Below, piece by piece: positions 1,201-20,000 of a stretch of 20,000 bases of DNA. The stretch spans positions 61,644 through 81,643 of the forward strand of contig JABANN010000068.1 in the NCBI GenBank assembly GCA_013115125.1, written 5' to 3'. Within the stretch, counting starts at the first letter, position 1. Each line of letters begins with the position of its first letter. The DNA comes from Perkinsus olseni (lineage: Eukaryota). The position numbers and the translations under genes were made by a program. The notes beneath the pieces were generated by a model. The model did no database searches and was not told where the DNA came from. It worked only from the letters and a program-made list of their open reading frames with translations.

Positions 1201-1774
1201 GCCCCTGCAGCAGCGACATGGCAAGTGAGGAATCGGCCGAAGTTTTTTTCTGATTCTTTTTGGTGTAGAATATTCACGATGTTTTTCACTACAAGAACCA
1301 TTTGATTACTATCTGATATTTCATGATATTCGCCCACTGCGATCTTTCACAGTTATCAACTCCGCGTATGGGTTGCGAGGTGTCTCGCCGAAAGATGCTG
1401 TTGAGTGCTCATCAGTATCGGGCAACCGTCTGCCGGAAGGAGCCCAGCTGGTCAGGCGCTAGAGATGAGCCACCAAGGTAGGCCTAGTTCGAAATTGCAA
1501 TGATGCTAGGTAGCTACTATAAACGAGAGAGTATCTCGGGGTTCAGGCCGGTCCCAGGGCTTCGGGGTTTGCTGTCCGAGCCGGGCACATCCGCCTGCTC
1601 TATTGTGGGGCTAATTGCTCTCAGAAGCACTTACCGGGACAGTACATGCAGTTGGGCATCCACTCTGCCACAGGGTTGATCGAGTCTAGTAGGAGTGCCG
1701 TGAATGATGATCTCTCGACCGCTGAGCCACGAAATGACGACGGTGTTCAGCGGCTGAACTTCAGCCCTTTCCTC

Positions 1775-3646
1775 ATGTCATCTCTCCCTTCCCTTGCGGT
1801 CCTCGTAACTCTCCCACTCGCCGTCACTGGTCAGACTACAGGGCAGCTCACCCCGGCTGGAGCAGGTGCCCCGAAAAGCTTTCAACTGGACACGCCTCGT
1901 CATCTCGCCCTCCCCTCAGACGTCCCCAATGGAGGCCCTCTGGACGCCATCCTCATCGCCCTCATCTTCTCGATCATCAGCACCCTCTGCATCTCGGCAG
2001 GTCGGCTCAGAAACTTTCTTTCCTCTCACTGTTCACTCTCTCGCGATTTCTCATTCTTCCCATGTATCTCCGTCGATTGCTCGTCAACTTGCCAGCTGCG
2101 TTGTACCACCGTGCTCGATACACCGATACAACGCAGCTGTCGTTCTCAGGCGTCGGCGGTGGTGGTGTCTTCGTCCCCCTCCTCAACAGCGGCATCCTCG
2201 GTCTCGCGACTCCCCTCGAGGCTCATCAAAGTGCCGCCCTCTCCGTCACGCTCGTCACCTTTGCTGCTATCGCCGCGGCTGCCGTCAACATAAGGTGCGT
2301 GGCTTCCGTAATTTCGTGGCGCAGCGGTCATTTCAGGTCCGGATTGGTCGACTACAGCTCCTGTTTGCTGATCGTGCCTGCTGCTAATGCTGGAACGATG
2401 ATTGGTCGGCAGGAAAATCGGGAAATTCCGGGAATTTTCCGAAAAAAAGACGGGAAAAGTCTTGTTTTTTGTCAGGTGTTCTGATCAGTAAATCTTGCCC
2501 CGATTGGTTCATCCTCCTCCTCACGGTTTTCGTCCTCGCCTGGGTGGCTTACTCGGCGTTCGGAAGATTCATTAAGACGAGGTGAGAAATGACGGTGGGA
2601 AGACTGGTGCCCGGGATCACTTGCAGGAAGAAGGAGCAGCTTAACGAGTTGAACAGACCGCTAGTCGGTGACCTCGATTTATGCAAACCTAGCGTCGATT
2701 CCGACAGCAACTCTTGGGCGACAGCAGCGGTGCTGATAATATCCTGGGTAGTGGTCTGGTTGATAACCCTCGTCCTCGGCGGGCATAGAACTCCTTCCAT
2801 CCTTGGTGAGATAGAAGATTCGCATCGACCGGGCGAGGTTGCCTCTTTTGGTGCTAGGTCTCAAGATTTGCTCCTCATCCTACTGGACTGTCCTGGCTCT
2901 CGCCATAGCTGTTCTCATGACCATCTCGATGATGTCATAATCGATCAGCCGATCGATTTGGAGATTCTTTCCACCTGTTTCAGACAGAGTAGTCGACTTT
3001 CTGTGCCCTCAAGTGTGGTACCGACCCCCGAGCCGCCACATCAACCTCGGCGTCGCCCTTCTGTTTTGATCTACTCCTTCCTGAGCTTCTCCGGTGGTAT
3101 CATATGCTCTGTCATTGGCATCGGTGGAGGTATGATATTCGGCCCGCTTTTACTAAGCCTCGGCAGGAAGCCTACCGTCGCCACAGCGACCTCCGCAATT
3201 GCAGTATTAATGACCAGCAGTATCGCGGCAGGACAGCTGGCTATGGAAGGTCCGACCGCGCGCCACGAAATTCCCTTTCAATCACGGACTTCTACGCATT
3301 TCTACTAATCTCTGCAGAAGATGTTTAACATCATCATCAGGCCATCTCGTGTCCGATAGTACCCTCCTCTACGGCCTCTTCTCCTTCCTGGGTGCTCTAC
3401 TTGGGACGCTCTACATCACCAAGGCAGTTGCAAAACATGGTCCGTAGGCGCTACGGAATTCTTAGCGGAGCGAAGTTCTTTCACTCAGGCCGTCAATCGA
3501 CTTTAGTGCTGCTCCTCCTGGTGGTGGTCGTTATTAGTGCGATTTTCGCTGCCATTGTTGGGGTGCAGAAGATGCTGAATGACCAGCAGGTCCACGGGTT
3601 CTCCAACCCATGCATTGGAAGGTCGCATGCCATGCATTTCTGTTAG
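1775..3646 (+). CDS. Sulfite exporter TauE/SafE (TSUP) family multi-pass membrane protein, multi-exon
   Basis: Manual splicing with introns 2001-2149, 2295-2336, 2405-2475, 2582-2626 and several later ones. This gives SAGVGGGGVFVPLL, GLVDYSSCLLIVPAANAGTMIG, PDWFILLL and the second-repeat motif IGIGGGMIFGPLLLSLGRKPTVATATS. Ends ..GFSNPCIGRSHAMHFC*. Junctions at 2800-2985 are less certain. Confidence 0.88.
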
Positions 3647-3770
3647 TATATATCCCGCTCTGTGTTCGCAATCAGTAGAGAAGAGACCCCTGGTTCGATC
3701 CCTGGCAGGTGTCGTTTTATCATGTGAACTCAACAAGATAATGTAAAGAATCCTTATGCCATTTAGATGC

Positions 3771-4685
3771 TCATTGTAATCGAAATTGGGTCAGTGGCGC
3801 ACCTGCGAAGATGATGCCAACGATTGAAACGTGGATGAGTAGATGAGCAGGCAAGCACCAGGGATATTCAGCCGAAGATAGCGGGTTCGATTCCCCGTCC
3901 CGCCGCTTTCTCACCACGAAAGAAGTGAACTGCCTGTCGTCCAAAGAAATCTCCTTTCTAGTCTTAACCTCTAGTCTATCTATTCGGGACTGACAACGAT
4001 ACCAAGTTGGTATTACCAGCAACGCTGAGGCGACGAACGAGAAAATTCCTGAGGGTATCACGACGCAACCCCCGGCAGATGTCACGATGATAATCGAACC
4101 ACATCATCGAGGACGATGTTGAAGGCTATCAGGTTGAAGGTTTCGTTAACACCAATACAAATGTATGGATACAACGCGTGAAGGAATGATAGCACAAAGT
4201 ACAGAAAAGAAAAGGAGAGTAACAGTACGATAGTAAAGTAATATTACTGTACGTCAATTTTATCCTTAAGACCCGTCGCTTTTATCTCAACTAATACAGA
4301 AAGGGAGCGATTTAGATCAATGCAACCACACTGCAGCCTGTCTACCGACGACAGCATCGCCGCACCCCGTTAACACCGGATGGCTACTCGTTTGCTGCCA
4401 ACATTTCCAAGCCAATAGACCATCTCATCGACAATTTTCGCCGGCCCTTCAATGCAGCCATCAACGCTACCAGTAGGAGTGTTCATGCACCTACACCATC
4501 ATTAACGGTATTTGTAATCTATGTTGAGCAAGAGTCTACCAGCCATGAAGGCCGAGCCTTTCCGCCTCGCGCGCCGCGTCTCGCCGGAAGAAGACGCCCT
4601 GGACTTTCCCGAAGACTTCAAATTCAACTCGGCTGAAGGAGGTGCGCACACGAGGGGAACTATTGCTCAACGGCGAAGATGTCAT
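3771..4685 (-). CDS. ACYP: Acylphosphatase (3 exons: 4685-4540, 4490-4388, 3989-3771; ~155 aa), not visible as a whole in the ORF track
   Basis: Spliced translation [97 protein letters not shown]. It contains the GxVQGVxFR signature (catalytic Arg) and the GWxxN catalytic Asn. GT-AG junctions are phase-compatible. Confidence 0.9.
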
Positions 4686-4783
4686 GGAAAAATAAAAAGT
4701 CACTGCGCCACAAAATAGAGTATCTTAGGTTGACTCAAGTAAATAATGGAATTAGAAACAATACGTGAGGAGTAACAATTATA

Positions 4784-7030
4784 TCAACTTCGCAACTGTG
4801 GCGGCGGACAGTGGAATTTCGTGGCGCGCGAAATGGACCTCACTCGGACTCGTCGAAGTACTTCTCTTGTATGTCCTGACATGAACAAGAATATGGAAAA
4901 CATGCGCTCGAAAAAGGTATCTTCCATCCATGCCGTGGCTACCATTTCAAGCTCCCTGCTGATGAACGCATCCAGATCTTCGTCCTCGTCAATTTCAGTG
5001 TAATCGATGAATCTTCCATCTCTGCCGTCAAGGAATCGGGCCTGAGAATGGCGTTGAGAAATTTCAAGATTGCAAGATGTGCTGCTCCTCTTCTCAACTG
5101 ATACATGAATATCAGTTCATGAGGCTTCGAAAGTTGTCGAACAGAATCGCCCACTGACCGCAATCTATCTCTAGCGGAGCGAAGCGTTTTTTCTTGCCTG
5201 CATTGTTTTCCTTAAAGCCTGCACTCTTTCTTCCCGACAGTCGGCTGCCTCGGCGTCGAAGTCAGCAAGATCGATCGACTCAGTGATGAAGTCATCGGCC
5301 AGGGGTTCGAGGCGGGGGTTATTGTGAGGGACGCTCCCGTCGTGGAGATGAGCTTCCATTTGATCTGACATATTCCGTATCTTGCACGCTTAACCACAAG
5401 ACACCCAGCATGTGCGATACATCTCCCACGCAAGCATCAACCAGAGACACCACCAACTGGCCAGAATCTCGCGCGCCGTGATTCGCCCCTCATTGACACT
5501 TACGAGTGACGAGTTATCAGATTCCCCCCATACCACATTTCCACCACATCTCTCGCGAACCAGACCATTTCCGGACCAACAAAAACCAACGACCTCTCAT
5601 CAAGCCACACCGCTCAGGACTTGACCCAGTTCGCCGGATAAGACAAATTGAGATCATTTGCTGTCTGGCAAAACTGGAGGTATCATATTTTGTGATTATC
5701 GAATTTTCCGAAAAACTGCCTCTCATCGAACGGCTTTCCGCAACCGCCGGAGAAGAAGGTAAGAAAGCACCTCACCGACACGATACATTTCCCGGAAATT
5801 AGAAATTTTCCCGCCAGTTAGGTAATTTACGATCTCTTTTCAGGGAAAATCATAAAATTTACGCCAGTTTCGTGAAAACTTGATAATTTTACACTATTTT
5901 CCCCAAAATTCTCCCAGCGTACCAACAATATATGATTTCCTCATCTCCCGCTTGCCCTCCTCATCAGCTGCCGAGTACTCAGCGTCGTCAACTGCATCGA
6001 TCAGCTTCGCTCCGCTCTTTTCTGTGTCGAATTTGCCCACTAGGGAATGCCACAGCCCGGCGTCACGGCGTCGCATTCTAGCCTCGGAAAAGTATCCATC
6101 GATCTTGTCATCTTCGCGCTGCATCCAGAGGACTCTCCGATGACCAACAACTTTTGAATTTCCGGGCGCAGTGACAGGATTTCCGTCATCGCCGTAACAT
6201 TTCGTGGCGCGTGACGCTCCTTGTATGAAGGCAAATACCTAGCGACCAGCGACTTGGAAGGGTATCTTAGGTTGACGCACGCACTTCATGATTGTCGTTG
6301 AGGGCAAGATTGGCGAAATATCCAAGCAACTCGTTTTCGGCAGTGATGATCAAAAGATATCTCTCGAAAAACGTGTGAGGAGAGGTAGTGAGCAGGGTGA
6401 AGAGGGAGGCGCCGACAGCCTGAGATTCACAAAAATTCCGATTCAGCTGATTTAGAAAAAGAGAGAGGGCGGAGCGAAGCGTTTCGAAAACTGCAAAAAG
6501 AAGCAGACAGGCTCGACAGCTGACTTGTTTCGTATCTGCTCATCTTCAACCTATGATACGCCTCGCATCTATCAAGTAACTTCCATAATACAGAATAGCA
6601 GCGATAGGGTTATTTCCGCTAGTATCTTAGGTTGAACCTCAGACTAAATGAAGCGCTAAGATATTTTGCCGCCACACCTTCACATGATTGATTTCTCACA
6701 CGCACATCAACCGCCATAATCTTGCGAATCAGGTTTGAATTCGAAATCCCTACTTTTTCGTCAGAAAATCGGTTGCAATATTCTCCCTTCTCCTTGTCAT
6801 AATAAACTCCACCAGGCAGCGGAATTTCCGCAAATCTGAGCTCAAAAAATACCCCGAAAACGTCACGCGCCACAAAATTACCGTGGACTCGCCATGACCT
6901 TCTGGACGACCTCAGTTGGTTCTAATTTTTCTCCCGCCGGAATTGAACCCTCGAGAGCCCTCCGCAGCTGCTGATGATGGTGGCAGCACGCAGGCGGCTG
7001 ACGTGGCCGTTTGCACTGCACAGAATCCAT
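4784..7030 (-). CDS. CCDC97-like (DUF2052) protein, multi-exon; exact 3' end and some internal exons uncertain
   Basis: Exon peptides LLTTSPHTFFERY..NDNHE|VFAFIQ, HRRVLWMQREDDKIDGYFSEARMRRRDAGLWHSLVGKF and ALRKTMQ|ARFLDGRDGRFIDYTEIDEDEDLD match remembered CCDC97 motifs (PxxFLERY, YFSEExMRxRxPxLY, RFLDGxDxxFDY). ATG at 7030. Confidence 0.75.
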
Positions 7031-7163
7031 TATAGTTCAAGTTGAGCTAGCAAGATACGGGTGAGGTCGACCTAAAGATTCCTCCTGAGAATGGTGTAAC
7101 GCAACGCCTGGATGAAGAGAGAAGTACAGCGTCAACTCGAATGGGGAATTTCTTTCTTATGTT

Positions 7164-9438
7164 TCACGCGAGGAAATACCACCTGAAAGATAGAGAGCTT
7201 TGGCGGAACGTGATTGGCGAAGTATCCAAGGTCGAAGCGTGCAAGATACGAGCGAGGTTAAAATCACTGGTGTTTTCAGTCATAACTAATTTGGAGGCAA
7301 GTACCAATCCAGAAGATACTCAATCCAACCTATTCCGCATCTTACCTGCATGAAGCCCAGATACCGCCCTGCATAACTATCGCCACCGCCGCTGTAACCA
7401 TTGCCACTTCAACACAAACCTTCTGACTCGGCTCGGCGACCCCCAATCGTTGCAAAACCGGCGACGCACCAGAAGCTCCATCCACTCCGCCCGTCCGGAG
7501 CAAAGATACGTATATGAATACCATGCTGGTTAGGAATCTAAAGGTTGACCTCGTCATTCACAGACATGAAAGATACTCTCTAAGAAGCGAAAATCGACTC
7601 TGCAATTTTCCGCCAATATTCATACCAAATTTTTCGCTTCTAAATATTACCCAACATTTTTCATCGGCCAAACAATTACCAATACGCACACCGAAAATTC
7701 TCCAACCCCAAATTAAGTCAAAACACGAAATCCTACCATTCTGTTTCTACTAAAAATTTTCCCCTAAAATTCCAACTTACCCGAGACCGCACGCTAAGCT
7801 CTTCACCCATCCCAAAGGCACCATCCACAAAATCGACAGCGGTAACATCACCGCAACGCTGTAACCGTACGAGCTGGTCAACAACAACCACAAAGAAGCC
7901 TTCGCTCCGCCCTGCTGCCCGTGAGCTGGAGGCACTGCGTAGCTCCCTCCGTCATTGGTAGCAGCATCATCGATGACATAAGTGTTGTGTCGAGTAGTAG
8001 CGGGGCGAAGCCAAGCAGGTAGGCGGTCCCACCAGCCGGTCTCGTCGTCGCCGGACGTCTGCTGAGTTCTGTTGGTGATCCAGAGAAGAAGGCCGAGGGT
8101 GATGAGAGGGGCGAGGATAACAACACCGAATAGAACAAGCCACGCTGTTCCTGAAAGAAAATTTTCGCGAAATTTCCGGATACCTTTGACACAGAATTTC
8201 TTGTATAGGAGAAGAGATACGCGTATCTTTCAGCGCACAGCGAAGGTTTTCTTGATTTCTCTGCCAATGAGAATGACCGAAAGGACTCCACCCCATTAAA
8301 AACGCTGGCGAATTCAGGGCGAGAATTTCCGGCTAACGCCTGATTATACGAAAATGCCGCTCCCCAGAATCGAACCCGGGACTTACCAGCCAAAGTGTAA
8401 TCAGTCGTATGAACTTCTCCCTGCTTCGCTCCGCTCAACAATTGGCGAGAAAAGTTCGCGGTTGCGGTTAGAAAAATAACAGCGGTAGTGCAGATCCAGA
8501 ACGGTCCTGGAAAAACGACGCAGCTGAGGATCGATCCGGGGCCCTTCCGACTACGAAGCTCGTCTATACCACGTAAACACACCGAGCCGTGCGAATCACC
8601 GCTAACGTGAAAAGCATGAGAAAAGCACCAAACGCGGTTCGAACCCGCGTCCGGCAAACCCCTAGAAATTTAAAAAAATGTCGAGATTTTTCCGGAAATT
8701 TTCCATCTTATTACCCCACAAATCTGGATTGGTCCGGAATGAAGACAACAGCTGGATGGAGTCCGCAAAGTGACGGGTGAAAAATTGGGCAATTCGGCCG
8801 CCCTCAGGAGAACCGGTTGAGCCGGGAGAGGGGAGCTGGAGGGAAGATGAGGGCGACAGGAGCGACAATCTGACGAAAAAAAAATCCGAAAAATTTGGTG
8901 ATTTTTGACTTACCTGTATGGCCATATGGCGAGTAGAAGTCTTCCTTCAACGTCTCGAGAAGTGACCTGAAAATTCCCAACGAATTAAATGCAGGAAAAA
9001 TACCCCCGCCAGGGATCGAACCCACGCCCTATTACATCGAAGAAGTTATCCTGTATGTATGAAAGTGTTAGTCCGCATGTCAACTTCGACAAGAGCCAAC
9101 CTCCGGATACTTCCGATGATGATGAGGACGCCGCCGCTGCATCGCCTCCAGCGGCAGAACGTCTGGGGGCGCTGTCCAATTGGCCGTCCAGACTGAGTAT
9201 CTTTGATCGATCACTCGATCGATTTCCTTCAACCTCATTGGTATCTTTCGACCCGCTACTGAAGTCAACCATGGGCACATCGTACTTGATAGGACCTAAG
9301 ATATTTCAGGATCAAATTTTTCCCGCGCGCCACGAAATTGTCTGTCATACCGCGCGAAGGTATTTCTTTCTGCTTGTCATCCTCCGTGCCCTCGAAGCCT
9401 TCATCCATCAGAGCTCCAGCGTCGATCGGAACGTACAT
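7164..9438 (-). CDS. Yip1-domain Golgi/ER membrane protein (YIPF1/2-like), multi-exon; may begin further upstream at the WW exon (10431)
   Basis: Spliced peptides DNFFD|VTSRDVEGRLLLAIWPYR, NPDLWG|PFWICTTAVIF, SSYGYSVAVMLPLSILW and terminal RWYFLA* (stop 7164-7166) match the Yip1 motifs FDV..V..R, PDLYGPFWI and YGYS. Phase-compatible exons 9438-9351, 9295-9111, 9050-9036, 8966-8914. Confidence 0.85.
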
Positions 9439-9555
9439 TAAAAGATACACAAAATCGATTAACCGTTTCATATAGATCAGAATTTCGTGGCGCAGTGAGA
9501 AGATCGGAAATTAGCCCGACTACTGAGACTGAATGAACTTAAGTGAGGTATTGAT

Positions 9556-9812
9556 TAGAGCTGGGCATCCGTACTGGGGTCGAGGAAAGTACGGTACGGT
9601 GTACGTTCCAAACTGCCAACCTAGTACGGGTACGGAGAATCAGTACGTATCAACTATATTAAACAACGCATACGTGTATTAAATTACGCCGTACTTCAGG
9701 TACGGCGTACTAGTACGGTACTTGGGAACCGCTGCGACGGGTAGTACGGGTACGGAGCCGTACTCGTACCGCACTCCGTACTAGACCGTACCCGTACTGT
9801 CGCCCACCTTTA
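9556..9812. mobile_element. Non-autonomous hAT-superfamily MITE (257 bp)
   Basis: Perfect 8-bp target-site duplication GTATTGAT at 9548-9555 and 9813-9820. Imperfect TIRs TAGAGCTGGGCA and (rc) TAAAGGTGGGCG. Interior is packed with GTACGG/CCGTAC repeats and has no ORF. Confidence 0.88.
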
Positions 9813-10304
9813 GTATTGATGCGATAGTGTCGTATTATCAAAAATGAACTCGCCAACATTAGCATATTGATATCAGCTACATGAATAACAGTGATACCAC
9901 TAGCTCTAGATATACAATAAACCGTCCTACCAATAATTTATTATCATACCATCTCTTCCCTAGTCAATATCTCGATTGTCCTGTGGCAATGTCACGGAAA
10001 CATCCTCACACGAGCTTCGTTCTATCTACTACGCCGAGATATCAACCCTACTATTTCTACTCCAAAAGCACCCTAAGAAAGTAGCTTTCCCCGCACAAGC
10101 CATAACGGAAGCCGGCTGGGGAATTATTTTTGGTCAACACAGTAATCATTAAGAACCAAATTCCGCAGTCCACAAGAAGGAAATAAGGGAAAAATTCTGA
10201 TGGAAAAACCGGAAAATTCGATAGCTTTCTTGCAGACTCAACCCAACGCCTCCCCTACTACTCTCCTTTTTCTTTTTTATTATTTTTCTTCTGCTTTCTG
10301 ACAC

Positions 10305-10431
10305 CTCTAGCGGTCGCCGGTTGAGTTGGACGGTCCCATTGGGTCTGCTCCGTTACTTCGTTGTAGAAGTACTCTTCACCATCATCAGTGGTGTATCGAG
10401 TCCAACCCAAGGGAAGGGAGTCACTTGACAT
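10305..10431 (-). CDS. WW-domain-encoding first exon, probably the 5' exon of the Yip1 gene
   Basis: ATG at 10431 gives MSSDSLPLGWTRYTTDDGEEYFYNEVTEQTQWDRP, a canonical LPxGW..G..YFYN..T..TQWxRP domain. It is followed by a phase-1 GT donor at 10304. Confidence 0.85.
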
Positions 10432-10559
10432 AGGGTATCCAAGGTTGAACCGTGCAAGATACGAACTAGGTCAACCTGAACTCCACCCTCACAACTCAAT
10501 TGGGCTTTCAGTGCGGCGGTAATTATAACAAGGAACGTTCAAGGTAGTTTACGTTGAGA

Positions 10560-11261
10560 CTAGAAACAGCACCAACAGTCGAAAGGACAGTCCGGAGTAT
10601 CTGATAGAAAAACAGGAAAATCTGAGTATGAGAGATCCAGCCGTGAAGTCGAGTTCCTAATAATGATTCCTCCACCGACGGATAACTATTAGCTGAATTA
10701 GGGGCACGAACTACATATGCAGCCACAGTACAGAGGTCGACTCTAGTAACCCGCAGAAAAAAAGATACGCCGAGATTCCTTCCCTTATTATTACTTCCCC
10801 CCTGTCCTATCTTCAGCTCTTCCTCAGTATATATTTTATACCCTTCCTCGGTCCGCTTTCGGTCGCCTCCCGACCGGTTGCCGAGTCCGAGTGGATCGTC
10901 CGCTGAGCCCTGGGGTCGGGAGGGGGCGGCAGGCTGCTGCTCCTTGGGGGTATCTTTGGTCTTTGCGGAGGTCGAGGTCGACCTCGTGGATTTCTTTAAT
11001 GCTCCGAAGATATCATCGATCGACTCGGAAGAGGACTCGCGCTTCTTGGTATCTGAGGTTGACCCGTGAAAGATACGAAACAGGTCAACAACTATGCCAC
11101 CAAGTATTACCTTCCTTATGCACGGATGCGGCTTTCTTGCCGTTTTTCCGAATATCCTTCGTCTTGATCTCCTTCCCTAAAAAAATCTCCCTCGCAGGGA
11201 TCGAACCCACTGCCTCCTCACCCTTCGGTTTGGCAGTAGCCTTCGCTGCAGTCGCCGCCAT
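10560..11261 (-). CDS. DUF1764 family protein (3 exons: 11261-11111, 11052-10795, 10600-10560; 149 aa)
   Basis: Spliced translation contains SIDDIFGALKK and ends RKRTEEGYKIYTEEELKIGQGG|NTPDCPFDCWCCF*, the hallmark DUF1764 C-terminus. Exon phases are consistent (450 nt). Confidence 0.9.
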
Positions 11262-11368
11262 AGGAAGAATCCAATCTCCAACCTTGCAAGATACAAAATA
11301 ACTCAACCTCCATGCCATTACACTTCAACACAACACCCACTATCCCGAAACTACTATCTCGTGAACAC

Positions 11369-14300
11369 TCACATCAACTTCTGCTGCATCCACGCCGGCA
11401 ACCACTGGTCGTTCGGATTCCCTCCTTCCCGGTCCATCTTATTCACGTCAATCGGGACGCCCCAGACGCGACAGTACATCGACAGCCCCTTCCCGCACGC
11501 TCGACTGACCCTCGTCCACCACTCGGTCGGGTCCGGCTCCTCATCATAAGTACCATCTTTTTCATAACTCCTCAATACATTCCTCAGCAGATCCCAACCG
11601 AAGGTCTCGATGACATCAACATACATCGTCAGACCCACCCAGGGACTCCAATCGTCCAAGGCGTCAGTAATGGGCGAACGATTATGCGCGGCGGAATAAA
11701 TCGCCCGGCCTCCTCCTTCCGAGCGTATCCTCTCCGTTATGAACTTCTCAGCATCCTCATGCCCCTCCCGGACGTTTTCCATATCCCTAGTCGGAATTTT
11801 TCGCCCAATTATCGTCATCATGCTGTACATACTGAACAGATTCACCGTCACTTCGCCACAGGATTTGTACGTCCACCTTCTCCGCTGGAAATGATGGCCG
11901 AGCTCGTGGAACAACCCCCAATCCCCTTCCAATAGGAGCTTACCAGGGCGATGCGCACCGCGAAGATTCCCTCCATCGCCCCAGACGGCACAGGAATCTT
12001 CCGCCGTAGAATTTTCATGTGCCATGATCGGATAGCCGCTGTGCATCCAACCTGCCGAAATTTCGACGTCAAAAACAAAACGGAATCTTTCTTCCCCGCA
12101 GACCGGCCGACAGGCGATATCGCAGTGGCTTCGAATCACCCTGTCCCAGAAATCTGTGACCGTGTCGGCCCAACCGTCCTCTCCGTCGGCTAAGGCGTGG
12201 GGAAGTAAAAGTCGAGTAGGGAGGGATAAAATAACATGCTTGGCTTGGACCTCTCCCCATGGAGGGTACGCATCTTGCGCACGCGGAAGATTTCTAAGAT
12301 TCCCTACTGGATGCCCGCCGAGCATCCAATGACCGTTAGACCACCACAGCGACGGCACCCCACCTTGCACGCGTGCACATGCCATCAAAATAGAATCAAC
12401 GTTGAGGTTGACTCCGCCGCCGGTAGCCTTGCCCGGCTCAACACCATTCTCGCGTATCCTTTCAAGATACACTAGACCTCCAAAAACTGATACCAGCTCG
12501 ACCTCAAGATTCCTTCCCGAAAGAATATCTTTGCTCACAGCAGAGATTCTGGGCCATCGGCGCCAACTATCATGCTTGGTGTTGTCGTCTTTATGACAGC
12601 CAATCCGAACGCGGAAACCAAAGTCATCGGGAAGAGCATCAGCCATGGAGACGGGGCGACCTTCACCCTTCGACGCTTCCTGCGAACTGCCAGCTTCAAC
12701 CAAAGATTCCAACCTCACCCTGATAGCCTGGCCCGGCCTAGCATAGACACCAGTACTAATCCACGGGTCAAAGCTCCTTCCTGTGACCGAGGAGTGCGGC
12801 GTATTTTTAGTAATGGCTTCGAATCGAACCTCGACCTCCTCGTCGGTGGCACCCTCCGACCTGCTCAGCGCATCTTGCGCCACCGCTGGACAGACCCCAG
12901 GGAAATCTTTTCCCGCGAGGTCGAGCACGTCGTTCATACTGACGTCGCCAGGAATCCTTTGCGGTGCGAACTCCAAGAATGTGGCCACTAGCTGCATCAG
13001 ATTGGTCTTCTTCACACCATCACCGTTCCTCCACCTTCCCGTGGCAGCCTCGGTTAACAACTGGCGTATCTTGGAGGTATCTTCCGAGCTCAAGTGCAAC
13101 CTCTTGTTCACAGCTTGCAGTACAATATCGCCCATCCTGGTCGACTTGCCAGGCACCACGCAAACCTTCATCAACGGAATTAAGGTATGGAAGGAATCTT
13201 TGCTCACTTCGCTAAGCAAGGTCAACCTCCGGTCACTCGTCAGAGGTCGCTGCCCCGGAAGATACTCTGATTCGAAACATATCCCAGCTTGGAGAGCGAC
13301 TTCTTGCATCGGATGTTCGGCGATGGTGTGGCCTCTATTGAGACACTCCCAACCCCATCCGTTAATACCGATCAGCAGACCAACACCTTCCTCTCGTACG
13401 AGAGAAAGAAGCCTATTGGCCTCCTGGGGAGTCGCCGGGTTACTAAGCGAAAGGTCGTTGGTTCGAAACGAGACCACGTCATAATCGTTTCTAGACATAA
13501 CAATATTGTGGTCCTCGTAGAAGCGTACCAGCGTGGCCCTCCTCGACCTGGCCACCCAGCGACGAGCTCTCTGCATCACGCCAGCTGCGACCTTAGATTC
13601 CTCATCCGTAGGGGCATTATCATAAGCTAAGGGTATGTACCTGCCGAGGAAGTCGAAAATTTCCGAGATTACACCGAGTATTTTTTCTAATCGAAAAACC
13701 CATTTTCATTGCTACTATTTTCTCTTTCTCCTTTCTCCTCAAAAAACAAATTGAAGAGAATAAAGACAATAAACAAAATAGCGAAGAAAGAAAATTCGCC
13801 TAGAGAATTTCTAGAACGCCATTGTGTACACACGCGATATGAAATCATACATGCCCATCTACCGACGTATCTTAGGTCGACCCGTGGCTTTGATATAGCC
13901 GAAGATATTCCAATACTATGCCGTCGTAACGGATACATGGCGAGGCGTTCCAACTTGTGAGAACGAGTGAGTAAGTATGTTGATAGAAAATGTGAAGAAC
14001 AAAAAGGGTATCTTTGATGAGCGTGGGATGCAAGGTTCGACCTCCATATTACCCTTCATGCCCGACAGCAACAATGCGTCCTTTGCCGAGGGTAGCACAG
14101 GCGAGGAGACACTGGGGCTCCGGTCCGGGGGTGGCGATGATAGATCGTGACGTATCCGAGAACACCGATAGCTGAATCATAGGTCGATCCATGACTTTCA
14201 CGGAGAGGAAAGATACTTACTGTTGATGGAGTGCCTATCACTTGGAACTTGCTCATATTAAGATGGTCTGTTATCTCGTCGAGAGCGGCATCCAGCGGAC

Positions 14301-14418
14301 TCGACTGCTGTTGCTGTTTGCCGTGGTGCTGCTGCCCCTCGCCGGAGTCCACCGTAGTAACATGAATTGAATTGGCGTAGCCGCCGGTGGGCATCTGGTT
14401 GAACGGATCGAATGACAT
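11369..14418 (-). CDS. TCAF/FAM115-like protein with peptidase M60 (enhancin-like) domain (exons 14418-14221, 14171-14053, 13640-11369; ~862 aa)
   Basis: N-terminal GKGRIVAVGHEG|YI (TCAF-type), WISTGVYARPG, RIGCHKD, FGGLVY, DVEISAGWMHSGYPIM, and the zincin motif WGLFHELGHHFQ..WT...GEVTVNLFS. Spliced CDS is 2589 nt, in frame. Confidence 0.9.
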
Positions 14419-15179
14419 TTCTATGAAAATAAATTAACTGATTATGAGCGAGCGCGGTTCATGCATTCCTAGGAAGAGAAAATATCCTGTTCAACCTGGG
14501 ACTCAAGAGGCGATTTTGAAGTAGACTCTTACGACACGAAAGATGCTAAAGCAAAAGACTAAAAGAAAGAAAAATCAAAGACACCAAAGATTTCCACTAA
14601 TATAAAAATAAGCTTCCCGTGAACGCTCCTCGTTACGCAAACACCAAAATGACCTCCGAGGAGCTGAGACGATCAGTGAAAAGTCAAACGCCCGCCAGGC
14701 GTACATCCCTAGCACAGCGAGGGTTTGCTGCTCAACCTTCCCACTGAGGTTGAGCAGTGCAGGGCGAGAGTGGCTTCCAGTTCTCGTTTTCTTGCGCACT
14801 TCTAGCGCTGTGAAAGTGAGCTGAAGATCATAAGCGACTGGGTATTCCTCGAGGGGAGATCCAAGAGGAGTACTGACTCAGCAACGCCGAAGCAATATGG
14901 GTGATGTTAAACGCCAAAAGCATTCTGGCAAATCCATGCCCAGCCTTCCGACTGGACTCTAGTCACTAGAGTATCCCCAGCATTAACGCGACTAGCGTTC
15001 TTATTTGTTGAAACGTAAGTAAGTCGGGTAATAGCCAAAGCAACTACTGTAGTCATCGCATTCACATTGGATCACATAGGAATCTTCCAGCCGTTTCATA
15101 ACCGAGAAGAATCTTCATAATGGCGCGCCCCAAATCGATCGTAACCTTCCTGCGCAGACCTACGATACTCAATTGACAA

Positions 15180-15413
15180 ATGCCTGCCATTAAAAAAAGT
15201 GACACCCCCCGTCCGGGGGCAAAGGCTGCCGGGGAAGTGGACTTCCCATACCTCGGCACTGACGGTGCTCGCCCCGTCAAAAAACAAAGAAACGGCCAGC
15301 CCGTTGGTTGGCTGCCTCCTTTCCCTCCTTGGGGGGAGTGGGAGTTCACTATCCTTCACCGACGCCGAATATGCGGCTCGGTGAAGAAGAAGCTCGACTT
15401 CTCAGATTGCTGA
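15180..15413 (+). CDS. 77-aa micro-protein of unknown function, left copy of the inverted pair
   Basis: ATG-initiated; 60/77 residues identical to the right copy. Many third-position synonymous differences and one in-frame 6-nt indel. Confidence 0.65.
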   Translation: MPAIKKSDTPRPGAKAAGEVDFPYLGTDGARPVKKQRNGQPVGWLPPFPPWGEWEFTILHRRRICGSVKKKLDFSDC

Positions 15414-15670
15414 GAAAGTCGCTGCTTGAAAAATAACAAAAAACAATAAAAAACTTATGGGGACCGAATCAACTCCACCTCCCCGCGGAGGTGGAACCAC
15501 TTCCATAAGTGGTTCCATAACCAGCGCTGTGATGTTTAACAGAGCTCCGTTAGCAAAGCGTTCTCAGCGAGTGAGAGCCGCTTCCCCAGGGACCACCGCG
15601 GGGAGGTGGAGTTGACTCGGTCCCCATAAGTTTTTTATTGTTTTTTGTTATTTTTCAAGCATCGACTTTC

Positions 15671-15910
15671 TCAGCAATCTGAGAAGTCGAGCTTCTTCTT
15701 CACCGAGCCGCACATTCGGCGTCGGTGAAGGGTGGCGAACTCCAATTCCCCCCAAGGAGGGAAAGGAGGCAACCAGCCTTGCGGCAGGCCATTTCGCTGC
15801 CTTTTGTCAGGGCGAACCCCGTCAAAGCCGAGGTATGGGAAATCCACTTCCTCGGAAGGCTTAACCCCGCAGGCCGGGCGGGGAGTATCTTTTTTCTTTA
15901 TAACGATCAT
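15671..15910 (-). CDS. 79-aa micro-protein of unknown function, right copy of the inverted pair
   Basis: ATG-initiated paralogue ending in the same ..GSVKKKLDFSDC*. Its stop codon mirrors the left copy exactly. Confidence 0.65.
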   Translation of the reverse strand: MIVIKKKDTPRPACGVKPSEEVDFPYLGFDGVRPDKRQRNGLPQGWLPPFPPWGELEFATLHRRRMCGSVKKKLDFSDC

Positions 15911-18470: not shown

Positions 18471-18878
18471 ATGTTGTTATGCACCTATCACGTGGTCTCA
18501 TCTCATCGGTGGCATCATTCGAAACAGATGGTGGACACAGGACGAGGAGGCGCTACTGCGCCACGAATTTCCTCTCTTTCAGTTGTGTCTGCCGGATCGG
18601 ATACCCACATGGACCTCTTTAATAATCGCCCTATCATGTAATGCAGCGGGGGTATTCGGCATCTATCATGCTCCATTTTGGAACGCCGTCGGGAGGGAAA
18701 TTGAAAGAGCGACGGTAATAACGGGAAGGCACTTTCGCCAGTCTGCGCTGGGTTTGAGTGAACTGTTCACCACCACCGCTGCTGCTGCTGTGGACTCGTC
18801 ACCGACATCAATTCACTTTAGGCTTAGGTTAAAATACTCAGCGCCAAAGATCCTGATCTACACCATTTCCAGACCTAC

Positions 18879-19010
18879 TTAGTAAAACCCCAGAGCAATT
18901 TAATAAAGCCCAGCCCAAATTAGTAAAACCCCAAAGCAATTTAATAAAGCCCAGACCAAATTAGTAAAACCCCAAAGCAATTTAATTTCGTGAAAGACCA
19001 ATTTAGTAGA
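18879..19010. repeat. 41-bp tandem repeat (about 3 copies, built of two related 20-21-bp subunits), probably subterminal repeats of the adjacent transposon
   Basis: TTAGTAAAACCCCA(G/A)AGCAAT-TTAATAAAGCCCAG(C/A)CCAAA starts at 18879 and 18920, with a diverging copy at 18961 and a remnant at 19003. It lies ~100 bp beyond the transposase stop. Confidence 0.9.
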
Positions 19011-19110
19011 GCTCAACAAAGCCACCAACAAAGATGGAAACACTGACAATCGTCGGCCTACATGGAGTAAGCCCACGATATGCTACAGAATGTAGGTTAG
19101 GCATGCTAAA

Positions 19111-20000
19111 TCAGACTCCAACTTGCATGTCTTCCATAGCTAAGCAACGAGGGTATAATGTTTGGACGTGATTGAAGCATCGTATACACAGCTGCATAGT
19201 AATCGCTTCAACACCTTTTCGGAGCAGCATCTCACAGTACTGCAGGCGGTATTCTGATTTCGTTCTACCGGCTCTTCCATTGTCCCATTCCTCGCGGAGG
19301 AGAAGCTGCTTCGTCAACGCGTTTTCTCTCTTCATCGCTTGTTTCGCAGCCGAGAAACAGTCTTCTATAGGGTTTATGCTAAAAGAGTAGGGTGACAAGC
19401 GCAAGAGTCGGGTACCTGATAGAAGCTCATAGACAAGCGACGGCCTTGCGATTACATACCTCTGCCATTGAATACAGCTTCTAACCCGGAGTGGGCCGGT
19501 GCGTTGTCACCGACGAACACCAGAGTCGTCAAATCATGACCCGCCTCCTGCATGCTGTCCAGCATCTCCCCAACAATTTCCGCGCAGACACCCTTGGTGA
19601 TGCTACCTCTTTGGATCTTGTGGTATCCCAAACCGGTCTGGGTAATGCAGCAAAAGCAGTGGATATTGGGTCCTTTGCTGGACCCCTCCTTCAGAACAGC
19701 TCGCGAACCCTTTATCGACCTAGCAACTCCTCGCTTTACAAACAAATTCACATTCGTCTCATCGAAGTATACCAATCTCTCACATGGTATGGCCGAAACT
19801 GCCTGCACAAATTCCCGGCGTTTTTGGCGATTAATCAAATTATTGACCGCTTCACCCTCAATGTGTGGACGCTTGACAGTATAGGCCCTGGAATCCAGAT
19901 GGTTCTTCACAGTTTGAGCACAGACGTCGATTCTCTTCTCGCGCCACAAGTGATCAGCCATCATCTGCAAGGTGGCCTGGGGGTTAGCCTCCACGAAGGA
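19111..20000 (-). mobile_element. IS630/Tc1/mariner (DDE_3) transposase, 5' part outside the window, one 44-bp intron (19459-19416)
   Basis: HTH-like ANPQATLQMMADHL..TVKNHL and catalytic YFDET, VGDNAPAH, RLSPYSFSINPIE. Two ORFs are joined in frame by a GTATGT..ATCAG intron. Confidence 0.92.

What the first reader, a model, noticed from the sequence alone, without database searches (positions are those of the whole stretch)
3692..11207. Dispersed B-box + ~11 nt + T-run modules mimicking the 3' end of tRNA genes, even inside exons
Seen: GGTTCGA(T/A)(T/C)C(C/T)-like motifs at 3692(+), 3884(+), 8366(-), 8636(-), 9012(-) and 11197(-), plus the variant GGTTCAATTCC at 6939(-). Most are followed 11-12 nt later by T3-T6, e.g. 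GGTTCGATCCC-TGGCGGGGGTA-TTTTT, GGTTCGATCCC-TGCGAGGGAGA-TTTTTT and GGTTCGATTCT-GGGGAGCGGCA-TTTT. Established: 11 nt is the distance from tRNA position 62 to the Pol III terminator, and B-box-only TFIIIC (ETC) sites organise chromatin in yeasts and mammals. I see no A-box or cloverleaf upstream. Three copies lie in predicted coding exons (GSIPA in DUF1764 and the CCDC97-like gene; antisense in ACYP). Inference: a dense array of TFIIIC-type sites or tRNA-fragment relics.
Basis: partly seen in the sequence, partly recalled or inferred. Interest (0 to 1): 0.7.

Follow-up and report, generated by a model that had tools for sequence, protein, structure and literature searches.

The report
Lone TFIIIC-type sites in Perkinsus introns
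Short pieces of old tRNA genes sit mostly inside introns of this shellfish parasite's genes and have kept the bases that the tRNA transcription factor TFIIIC grips while losing the rest, which suggests they are maintained protein-binding sites rather than debris.

Summary
The modules are real. In this Perkinsus olseni-like genome GGTTCGANYCC occurs 2271 times (reversed control 208); 675 have TTT exactly 11 nt later, against 30 at 6 nt. The exon claim mostly fails: 11197 lies in a 45-nt intron shown by RNA contigs, 3884 in an inferred 112-nt intron, and the exonic 6939 copy is borderline. The 35-bp unit matches tRNA positions 44-78. T-stem pairing is at shuffle level and the 5' half is usually gone, yet G53, T55, C56, A58 and C61 are 94-100% kept in leave-one-out counts; simulated neutral decay to the same divergence keeps about 40-75%. 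Extent and most conserved bases fit the published TFIIIC tauB footprint, both orientations occur, and a tauB DNA-binding subunit is encoded. Best reading: roughly 4,000-5,000 tRNA-derived, ETC-like TFIIIC sites under purifying selection, housed in short introns. Binding is untested. The scan noted these modules on other contigs of this genome, mostly as relics or intron seeds; the selection test is what this report adds.

The parts
3684..3718 (+). Extended B-box module (core 3692-3702) between the 3' ends of a + strand membrane-protein gene and the - strand acylphosphatase gene; not in an intron
   Evidence: 27.1 bits; acylphosphatase stop at 3791
3876..3910 (+). Extended B-box module (core 3884-3894), antisense inside intron 3803-3914, 4 nt from its 5' splice site
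   Evidence: 27.6 bits; positions
3803..3914 (-). 112-nt GT-AG intron, last intron of the acylphosphatase gene (inferred)
   Evidence: X1 loose end at 3912 matching 3788-3799; ends; P. marinus ortholog ends FLVRH like the spliced form; the second ortholog P0007 ends differently
6923..6957 (-). Weak B-box-like match (core 6949-6939, GGTTCAATTCC) in the first coding exon of the CCDC97-like gene; no T-run; borderline
   Evidence: 13.4 bits; exon 6882-7048 covered by X6 contig; reads RALEGSIPAGEK
8350..8384 (-). Extended B-box module (core 8376-8366), sense, starting at base 3 of intron 8151-8386
   Evidence: 36.3 bits
8151..8386 (-). 236-nt GT-AG intron of the multi-exon membrane-protein gene at about 7344-9420 (inferred from transcript length)
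   Evidence: X2 record 8 has 327 nt between 8149 and 9034, which the exon model gives after allowing for the piece ends; open frame over 407 codons
8511..8545 (-).
   Evidence: 30.9 bits; upstream alignment score 30, above the 99th control percentile
8619..8653 (-). Extended B-box module (core 8645-8635), sense, mid-intron
   Evidence: 25.6 bits
8507..8714 (-). 208-nt GT-AG intron holding two modules
   Evidence: joint in 3 of 4 runs; ends
8996..9030 (-). Extended B-box module (core 9022-9012), sense, 5 nt after the 5' splice site
   Evidence: 37.6 bits
8967..9035 (-). 69-nt GT-AG intron
   Evidence: joint in 4 of 4 runs
11181..11215 (-). Extended B-box module (core 11207-11197) filling 35 of the 45 nt of its intron
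   Evidence: 27.6 bits
11177..11221 (-).
   Evidence: joint in 3 of 4 runs; homologs lack the peptide; Pfam DUF1764
13452..13486 (+). Second weak match, antisense within the long open frame 11369-13705; borderline
   Evidence: 12.9 bits; ORF

Best explanation
The modules are about 35-bp remnants of tRNA genes (positions 44-78) kept by purifying selection as DNA sites for the tauB half of TFIIIC, like extra-TFIIIC (ETC) sites. Step 1 (supported): dispersed tRNA-gene copies land in or between genes. Step 2 (shown as a sequence pattern): the A box, D arm, anticodon arm and T-stem pairing decay, so no tRNA can be made. Step 3 (selection inferred from a simulation): the bases tauB reads are kept, with a weaker 3' extension and T-run. 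Step 4 (shown for location, inferred for cause): inside genes the sites persist in introns, in either orientation, often filling a minimal intron. Step 5 (inferred by analogy only): TFIIIC binds without starting Pol III and acts on chromatin or chromosome organisation.
For: Scale: 73 modules at 15 bits or more in 620 kb; 70 at 16 bits or more against 3, 0, 0 in three Markov shuffles; 11 tRNA genes masked. Leave-one-out conservation: C56 67/67, T55 66/67, G53 66/68, A58 66/69, C61 65/69, C48 56/69, while 66-69 are close to random. Core-blind search: 67 hits, by eye 8 without a B box (about 9.5 expected by my arithmetic), 3 tRNA-Met, 56 modules with G53 and C56 intact in 56 of 56. Outer T-stem pairs 100 of 219 against 96 in shuffles, p 0.28; all three paired in 91% of 66 tRNA 3' halves. 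Neutral simulation: reaching 7.2 of 21 mismatches and 17% intact stems needs 0.5-0.7 substitutions per site, leaving about 0.4-0.75 at the core. Published contacts: human G53, T55, C56, G57, C61 equivalents and 35 bp resolved; yeast adds C48 and G52 equivalents and downstream contacts conserved at ETC loci (the renumbering is mine). Orientation: a 5' splice-site word lies just upstream in 115 cases and antisense just downstream in 114 (about 40 each expected by my estimate). A GTF3C1/Tfc3-type gene is present. Origin: upstream tRNA traces above the 99th control percentile in 9 of 125 modules, two of which I discount.
Against: No binding data. The invariant bases are also invariant in tRNA genes, so the case rests on the contrast with decayed flanks and on a simple simulation (uniform rate, no indels, 120 sampled tRNA genes, the scoring matrix trained partly on the same modules). 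G57, a published contact, is only 54 of 74 G (64 of 74 purine), and A58, highly kept, is not among the base contacts named in the passages read. Modules keep a small residual likeness to real tRNA 3' halves (7.34 against 7.60 mismatches). Sense 5' splice-site words peak at fixed offsets (-17 in 11 of 127, -10 in 6), which binding alone does not explain. No cross-species test was possible. P0001 matched no TFIIIC chain in the PDB by sequence. Intron status outside the window rests on splice-site words, not RNA.
Confidence: 0.62

Rival explanations
1. Neutral relics: decayed pieces of tRNA genes or of a tRNA-derived SINE, found in introns only because exonic insertions are purged.
For: Perkinsus has many tRNA genes (over 500 in five types in P. 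marinus, PMC3706591; arrays). Half-decayed whole genes exist. Residual likeness to real tRNA 3' halves. Two repeat families with tRNA-like heads were seen (L187-L190, L191-L192).
Against: No simulated age or age mixture gave both the observed flank divergence and a 94-100% core. The profile is flat upstream of about position 39. Flanks are unique apart from a few duplicates and nearest-neighbour distances between modules mostly follow the column-shuffled control. TTT at 74-76 is commoner in modules (29/73) than in tRNA genes (17/120).
Confidence: 0.12
2. Intron seeds: inserted tRNA 3' fragments created the introns by supplying splice signals, and only those signals are under selection.
For: 5 of 6 intronic window copies lie within 5 nt of a splice site; one fills 35 of 45 nt. 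A 5' splice-site word peaks 17 nt before the core, where sampled tRNA-Thr genes read GTAA (18 of 100 listed rows by eye). At 8537 the T-run is the pyrimidine tract.
Against: Antisense copies abut 5' splice sites as often as sense copies and keep T-richness. Splice signals do not need G53-C61. Intron gain itself was not tested, since no ortholog with and without the intron was available. It can be true as an origin story together with the best explanation.
Confidence: 0.12
3. A protein other than TFIIIC, or a derived complex, reads the motif.
For: The genome has several other strongly over-represented words whose density correlates with the modules. The T-run and A73 preference go beyond what the papers' text names.
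Against: The motif is the tRNA B box plus flanks, and its extent matches the published tauB-bound DNA. A tauB subunit with the B-block and extended winged-helix domains is encoded.
Confidence: 0.08
4. RNA-level element: a T-loop in pre-mRNA or in small intron-derived RNAs, read by a tRNA-processing or modifying enzyme.
For: The kept bases are also T-loop identity bases; 5 of 6 intronic window copies are in sense orientation.
Against: The T-stem is broken and genome-wide orientation looks even. No RNA family match at these sites.
Confidence: 0.06

Closest known systems
Yeast ETC (extra-TFIIIC) sites, S. cerevisiae ETC1-8, and S. pombe COC sites (PMC3395662, passages; PMC11724288)
   Same: B box without an A box, with a conserved extension of about 10 bp on the 3' side; no tRNA; constraint on the binding consensus.
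   Different: Eight intergenic sites in yeast against an estimated 4,000-5,000 here, mostly intronic where tested; a T-run follows; occupancy and cross-species conservation are shown in yeast and untested here. I could not see the yeast logo (Fig. S10C), so the 3' extension was not compared base by base.
Mammalian ETC sites (over 1800 in human; PMC12409998, passages)
   Same: Thousands of B-box-only sites outnumbering tRNA genes.
   Different: Described near Pol II regulatory elements and CTCF; here the sites fill minimal introns of a 40-Mb protist genome.
[quoted passage not shown]
   Same: tRNA-pseudogene origin, clustering, over-represented in introns.
   Different: C. elegans sites keep both A and B boxes and many belong to one repeat class; here an A-box pattern is seen in 8 of 125 modules and flanks are unique.
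Introners and introner-like elements (search listings only)
   Same: A recurrent element making up whole short introns in unrelated genes.
   Different: No family of near-identical introns; both orientations; also found outside introns (3692). Terminal repeats and target duplications were not examined.

Membership tests
ETC (extra-TFIIIC) sites | B-box consensus outside a Pol III gene | tested here: met
   No tRNA in window; 368 of 2271 cores have an A-box pattern at tRNA spacing; 58 of 675 TTT modules are tRNA genes by eye
ETC (extra-TFIIIC) sites | Conserved extension of about 10 bp 3' of the B box | tested here: met
   C72 51/70, A73 52/71, T76 55/68; identity with the yeast extension not checked (figure not held)
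ETC (extra-TFIIIC) sites | Evolutionary constraint on the consensus | tested here: inconclusive
   Within-genome test favours constraint; no second species available
ETC (extra-TFIIIC) sites | TFIIIC bound in vivo | not testable with these tools
   Only the presence of a GTF3C1-type gene was shown
ETC (extra-TFIIIC) sites | TFIIIB and Pol III absent | not testable with these tools
   No occupancy or small-RNA data; contigs cannot show it
tRNA gene | Cloverleaf with A box and paired T-stem | tested here: not met
tRNA-derived SINE | Shared body and tail; copies related as one family | tested here: not met
   Flanks unique but for a few duplicates among 134 modules; nearest-module distances mostly like shuffled control
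tRNA-derived SINE | Target-site duplications | not tested
   No systematic search was run
Introner | Families of near-identical whole introns | tested here: not met
Introner | Intron absent from orthologous genes (recent gain) | not testable with these tools
   No related genome held

The most novel reading that the evidence does not exclude
Perkinsus keeps thousands of minimal introns partly as carriers of TFIIIC sites: tRNA-gene insertions gave rise to introns whose retained content is a tauB-binding site, giving a gene-body lattice of TFIIIC anchors that organises chromosomes in a close relative of dinoflagellates.
Probability: 0.25. Interest if true: 0.85.

Novelty: new variant of a known kind. 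Interest (0 to 1): 0.6.

Why it matters
ETC function is still open even in yeast and mammals (PMC12409998). A compact genome with an estimated 4,000-5,000 unrelated, apparently constrained sites inside genes would give a large natural set for defining the full tauB footprint and for testing what TFIIIC does away from Pol III genes. It would also be a case of introns kept for a DNA-level site, and a route from tRNA genes to intron content. A search for Perkinsus with TFIIIC found 0 papers; searches listed none whose title or abstract start describes this. The library lacks most subscription journals.

Tried and rejected
ARAGORN and Rfam on the window: no tRNA. Rfam on six module loci: nothing. 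RF00005 on the genome scored only 63 of 3889 candidates, so it gives no tRNA count. First nearest-tRNA test with 66 halves looked like the control; with 120 genes a small residual likeness appeared, and I report the latter. A G excess at position 18 in 44 selected modules did not hold in the unbiased 73. Paralog comparison as a selection test: too few duplicated loci. Metagenome search for a related species: two 24-residue matches, unusable. PDB sequence search with P0001: no TFIIIC chain. Pfam on three single exons of the 7344-9420 gene: no family. Dada transposons as the cause: they target the A box of tRNA genes in P. marinus, but I found no link and did not search for them here. My first idea of non-canonical intron ends at the AAGATAC words was dropped: listed joints are GT-AG, one GC-AG. 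The genome sample stayed at 620 kb. Only 4 of 24 listed runs were laid, all as contigs, so retention of the 45-nt intron could not be measured.
Full report
Setting. The window is G000:C2990:61644-81643 of a 39.9-Mb assembly in 3353 contigs. Proteins from the window and from another G000 contig match Perkinsus olseni records at 94-98% identity, so I treat the organism as P. olseni or very close; earlier scan notes say the same. Host genes on the - strand: acylphosphatase (3791-4685), CCDC97-like (4840-7030) and DUF1764 (about 10557-11261), named by Pfam on single exons, and a multi-exon membrane protein at about 7344-9420 for which Pfam found nothing on 3 of 3 exons tried (Yip1-like is my recalled label).

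1. The observation. All listed motifs are present. GGTTCGANYCC with up to 1 mismatch gives 12 matches against 3.15 expected, 0 of 200 shuffles reaching 12; these are 9 sites. Genome-wide the exact core occurs 2271 times against 208 for the reversed pattern (palindromic cores count twice). TTT follows after exactly 11 nt in 675 cases (control 1) and after 6 nt in 30. An A-box pattern at tRNA spacing precedes 368 cores. Of 99 loose A-box + core + TTT matches I count by eye 59 rows (58 genes) as tRNA and 40 not, so about 9% of the 675 are tRNA genes.

2. Location. Four of 24 listed runs were laid on 1500-14600; all are contigs, two on record as RNA and two guessed. Joints show introns 11177-11221 (3 of 4 runs), 8967-9035 (4 of 4) and 8507-8714 (3 of 4); 10 further joints were not shown. 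Intron 8151-8386 is inferred from transcript length (327 nt in X2 record 8) and an open 407-codon frame. Intron 3803-3914 is inferred from one loose end, GT-AG ends and the P. marinus ortholog, which ends FLVRH like the spliced form (the other ortholog, P0007, ends differently). So two of the three 'exonic' copies are intronic. P0003-P0006 lack the GSIPA peptide at the 45-nt intron (P0002 is partial and does not reach it). The 6939 copy is in a coding exon, has no T-run and scores 13.4 bits.

3. Anatomy. A 35-position matrix, seeded on 52 cores from loci outside the sample and iterated on 620 kb (five large contigs plus the window, 11 tRNA genes masked), modules at 15 bits or more; at 16 bits 70 against 3, 0, 0 in shuffles. 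The consensus corresponds to tRNA positions 44-78: AGGTC, S, C, R, the core GGTTCGA-W-Y-CC, a loose stretch, then K-G-C-A and a T-run. Scaling 73 per 620 kb gives about 4,700 genome-wide; a second estimate (about 1,700 non-tRNA exact cores, 23 of 56 modules having an exact core) gives about 4,100. Both are rough: contigs range from 4 to 40 modules. Modules cluster: 27 of 73 have a neighbour within 500 bp against 10.8 expected. Flanks of 134 modules are unique apart from a few duplicates.

4. Origin. Positions 39-43 show a weak tRNA-like signal and the profile is flat further upstream. Against 120 sampled tRNA genes (43 labels), 128 modules are slightly closer than column-shuffled controls (7.34 against 7.60 mismatches of 21; five tRNA-array or partial-tRNA loci were left out first). 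Upstream 50-mers align to tRNA 5' halves above the 99th control percentile in 9 of 125 modules, about 1 expected; one is a missed tRNA-Thr and one was ascertained on an A box. Window copy 8537 is among the rest. Half-decayed whole genes appear. P. marinus has over 500 tRNA genes in five types (PMC3706591, passages). Descent from tRNA genes is therefore likely and old.

5. Relic or maintained site. The three outer T-stem pairs are all intact in 91% of 66 tRNA 3' halves but in 13 of 73 modules; Watson-Crick pairs number 100 of 219 against 96 in shuffles, p 0.28. With each column left out of the score in turn, C56 is kept in 67/67, T55 66/67, G53 66/68, A58 66/69, C61 65/69, T54 63/69, G52 62/69, G57 54/74, C62 51/69, C48 56/69, C72 51/70, A73 52/71, T76 55/68; positions 66-69 are near random. 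A core-blind genome search gave 67 hits: by eye 8 with no B box, 3 tRNA-Met and 56 modules with G53 and C56 intact in all 56, T55 and C61 in 54, A58 in 53, G57 in 43 (the 8 were set aside on the core itself). I simulated neutral decay of the sampled tRNA 3' ends and passed them through the same matrix. Matching the observed 7.16 mismatches and 17% intact stems needs 0.5-0.7 substitutions per site, where leave-one-out core conservation is about 0.4-0.75 (few copies are detected at 0.7); a mixture of ages gives 1.9-2.4 mismatches, 61-67% intact stems and about 0.89. No setting reproduced the data. Limits: uniform rates, no indels, incomplete tRNA set, a matrix trained partly on the same modules.

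6. Fit to TFIIIC. In the human tauB-DNA structure 35 bp were assigned (55-89, B box 65-75) and base contacts map to G53, T55, C56, G57 and C61 (10.1101/2023.05.16.540835, passages; my renumbering from their C69 = C56). That span is offsets -10 to +24; the motif here spans -8 to +26. In yeast a contact maps to C48, the strongest upstream position here, and tau91 makes base contacts downstream that are conserved at ETC loci (PMC11724288: passages, section 26 and the legend of Fig. S10; the figure was not visible). Against a perfect fit, G57 varies and A58 is kept. Yeast ETC sites are a B box with a 10-base 3' extension (PMC3395662, passages). G000 encodes a GTF3C1/Tfc3-type protein: PF04182 at C2679, 98% identical to P0001, which carries B-block_TFIIIC and eWH_GTF3C1 above cut-off and two further domains below it.

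7. Relation to splicing. In 73 modules a 5' splice-site word lies just upstream in 11 and antisense just downstream in 12, background 5%. Genome-wide the counts are 115 and 114 (some antisense rows are tRNA genes; about 40 each expected by my estimate). Even orientation points to a DNA-level role. Five of six intronic window copies lie within 5 nt of a splice site. Sense splice words peak at -17 (11 of 127) and -10 (6), and sampled tRNA-Thr genes read GTAA at the -17 register, so some introns may have arisen from tRNA genes; this was not tested. The T-run is commoner in modules than after tRNA genes (29/73 against 17/120; part of that gap may come from the matrix rewarding T) and persists in antisense-type copies. 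I read it as part of the bound DNA, sometimes doubling as a pyrimidine tract, not as a working terminator (inference).

8. Verdict. Works like an ETC site by sequence; membership needs occupancy data, which I could not test. Not a tRNA, not one SINE family, not an introner family by the tests run. Earlier scan notes report the same modules on other contigs and mostly call them relics or intron seeds (unchecked notes); my selection test disagrees with the pure-relic reading. No paper on Perkinsus and TFIIIC was found; some searches were seen as listings only; PMC12409998 and PMC6950938 as passages. Novelty: new variant of a known kind. Interest 0.6.

Noticed in passing
window, e.g. 4720-4736, 6262-6278, 6622-6638, 10434-10480, 11048-11089: Recurrent words AAGATAC (29 in the window), AAGATTC (18) and AGGTYGA (33), often joined as GTATCTTAGGTTGA, in introns, spacers and exons; top over-represented 8-mers in the 620-kb sample, and their density correlates with the B-box modules.
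   Followed up: partly
window 2310, 3259, 4815, 6201, 6866, 9326, 9481: Word AATTTCGTGGCGC(G) on both strands, 10 TTYGTGGCGC matches in the window, several in short introns.
   Followed up: partly
window 3465, 5174, 6005, 6469, 7900, 8424: Word GCGGAGCGAAGC, 6 copies in the window and over-represented in the sample.
   Followed up: partly
window about 5042-5197 (-): 156-nt intron that reads best as GC-AG.
   Followed up: partly
window 15216-15868: 277-nt inverted repeat, 88% complementary; already noted by the scan as e1-7223585.
   Followed up: no
window 9500-9810: Repeat rich in GTAC palindromes with many C>T differences among contigs and loose ends at 9498 and 9809; looks like a dispersed mobile element.
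   Followed up: no
window 11369-13705 (-): 778-codon open frame without introns, with an HELGH motif; M60-type metallopeptidase is my recalled label, not tested.
   Followed up: no
window 18869-19012: AT-rich tandem repeat of about 41 nt beside a decayed reading frame at 19000-20000.
   Followed up: no
L187-L190 and L191-L192: Two repeat families with tRNA-like heads (A- and B-box-like) and shared flanks; candidate tRNA-derived SINEs or transposon ends, distinct from the lone modules.
   Followed up: partly
L125, L139 and G000:C1103:151,400-151,700: Three 80-89% identical copies of a 250-320 nt element around a palindromic B box; no Rfam match. Possible Pol III RNA gene.
   Followed up: partly
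L120-L121 (G000:C22:746-5036): Eight modules within about 4 kb, the densest cluster seen.
   Followed up: no
window 10932: 15-nt (GCT)5 insertion allele in the DUF1764 exon in two runs, matching the longer glutamine run of P0006.
   Followed up: partly
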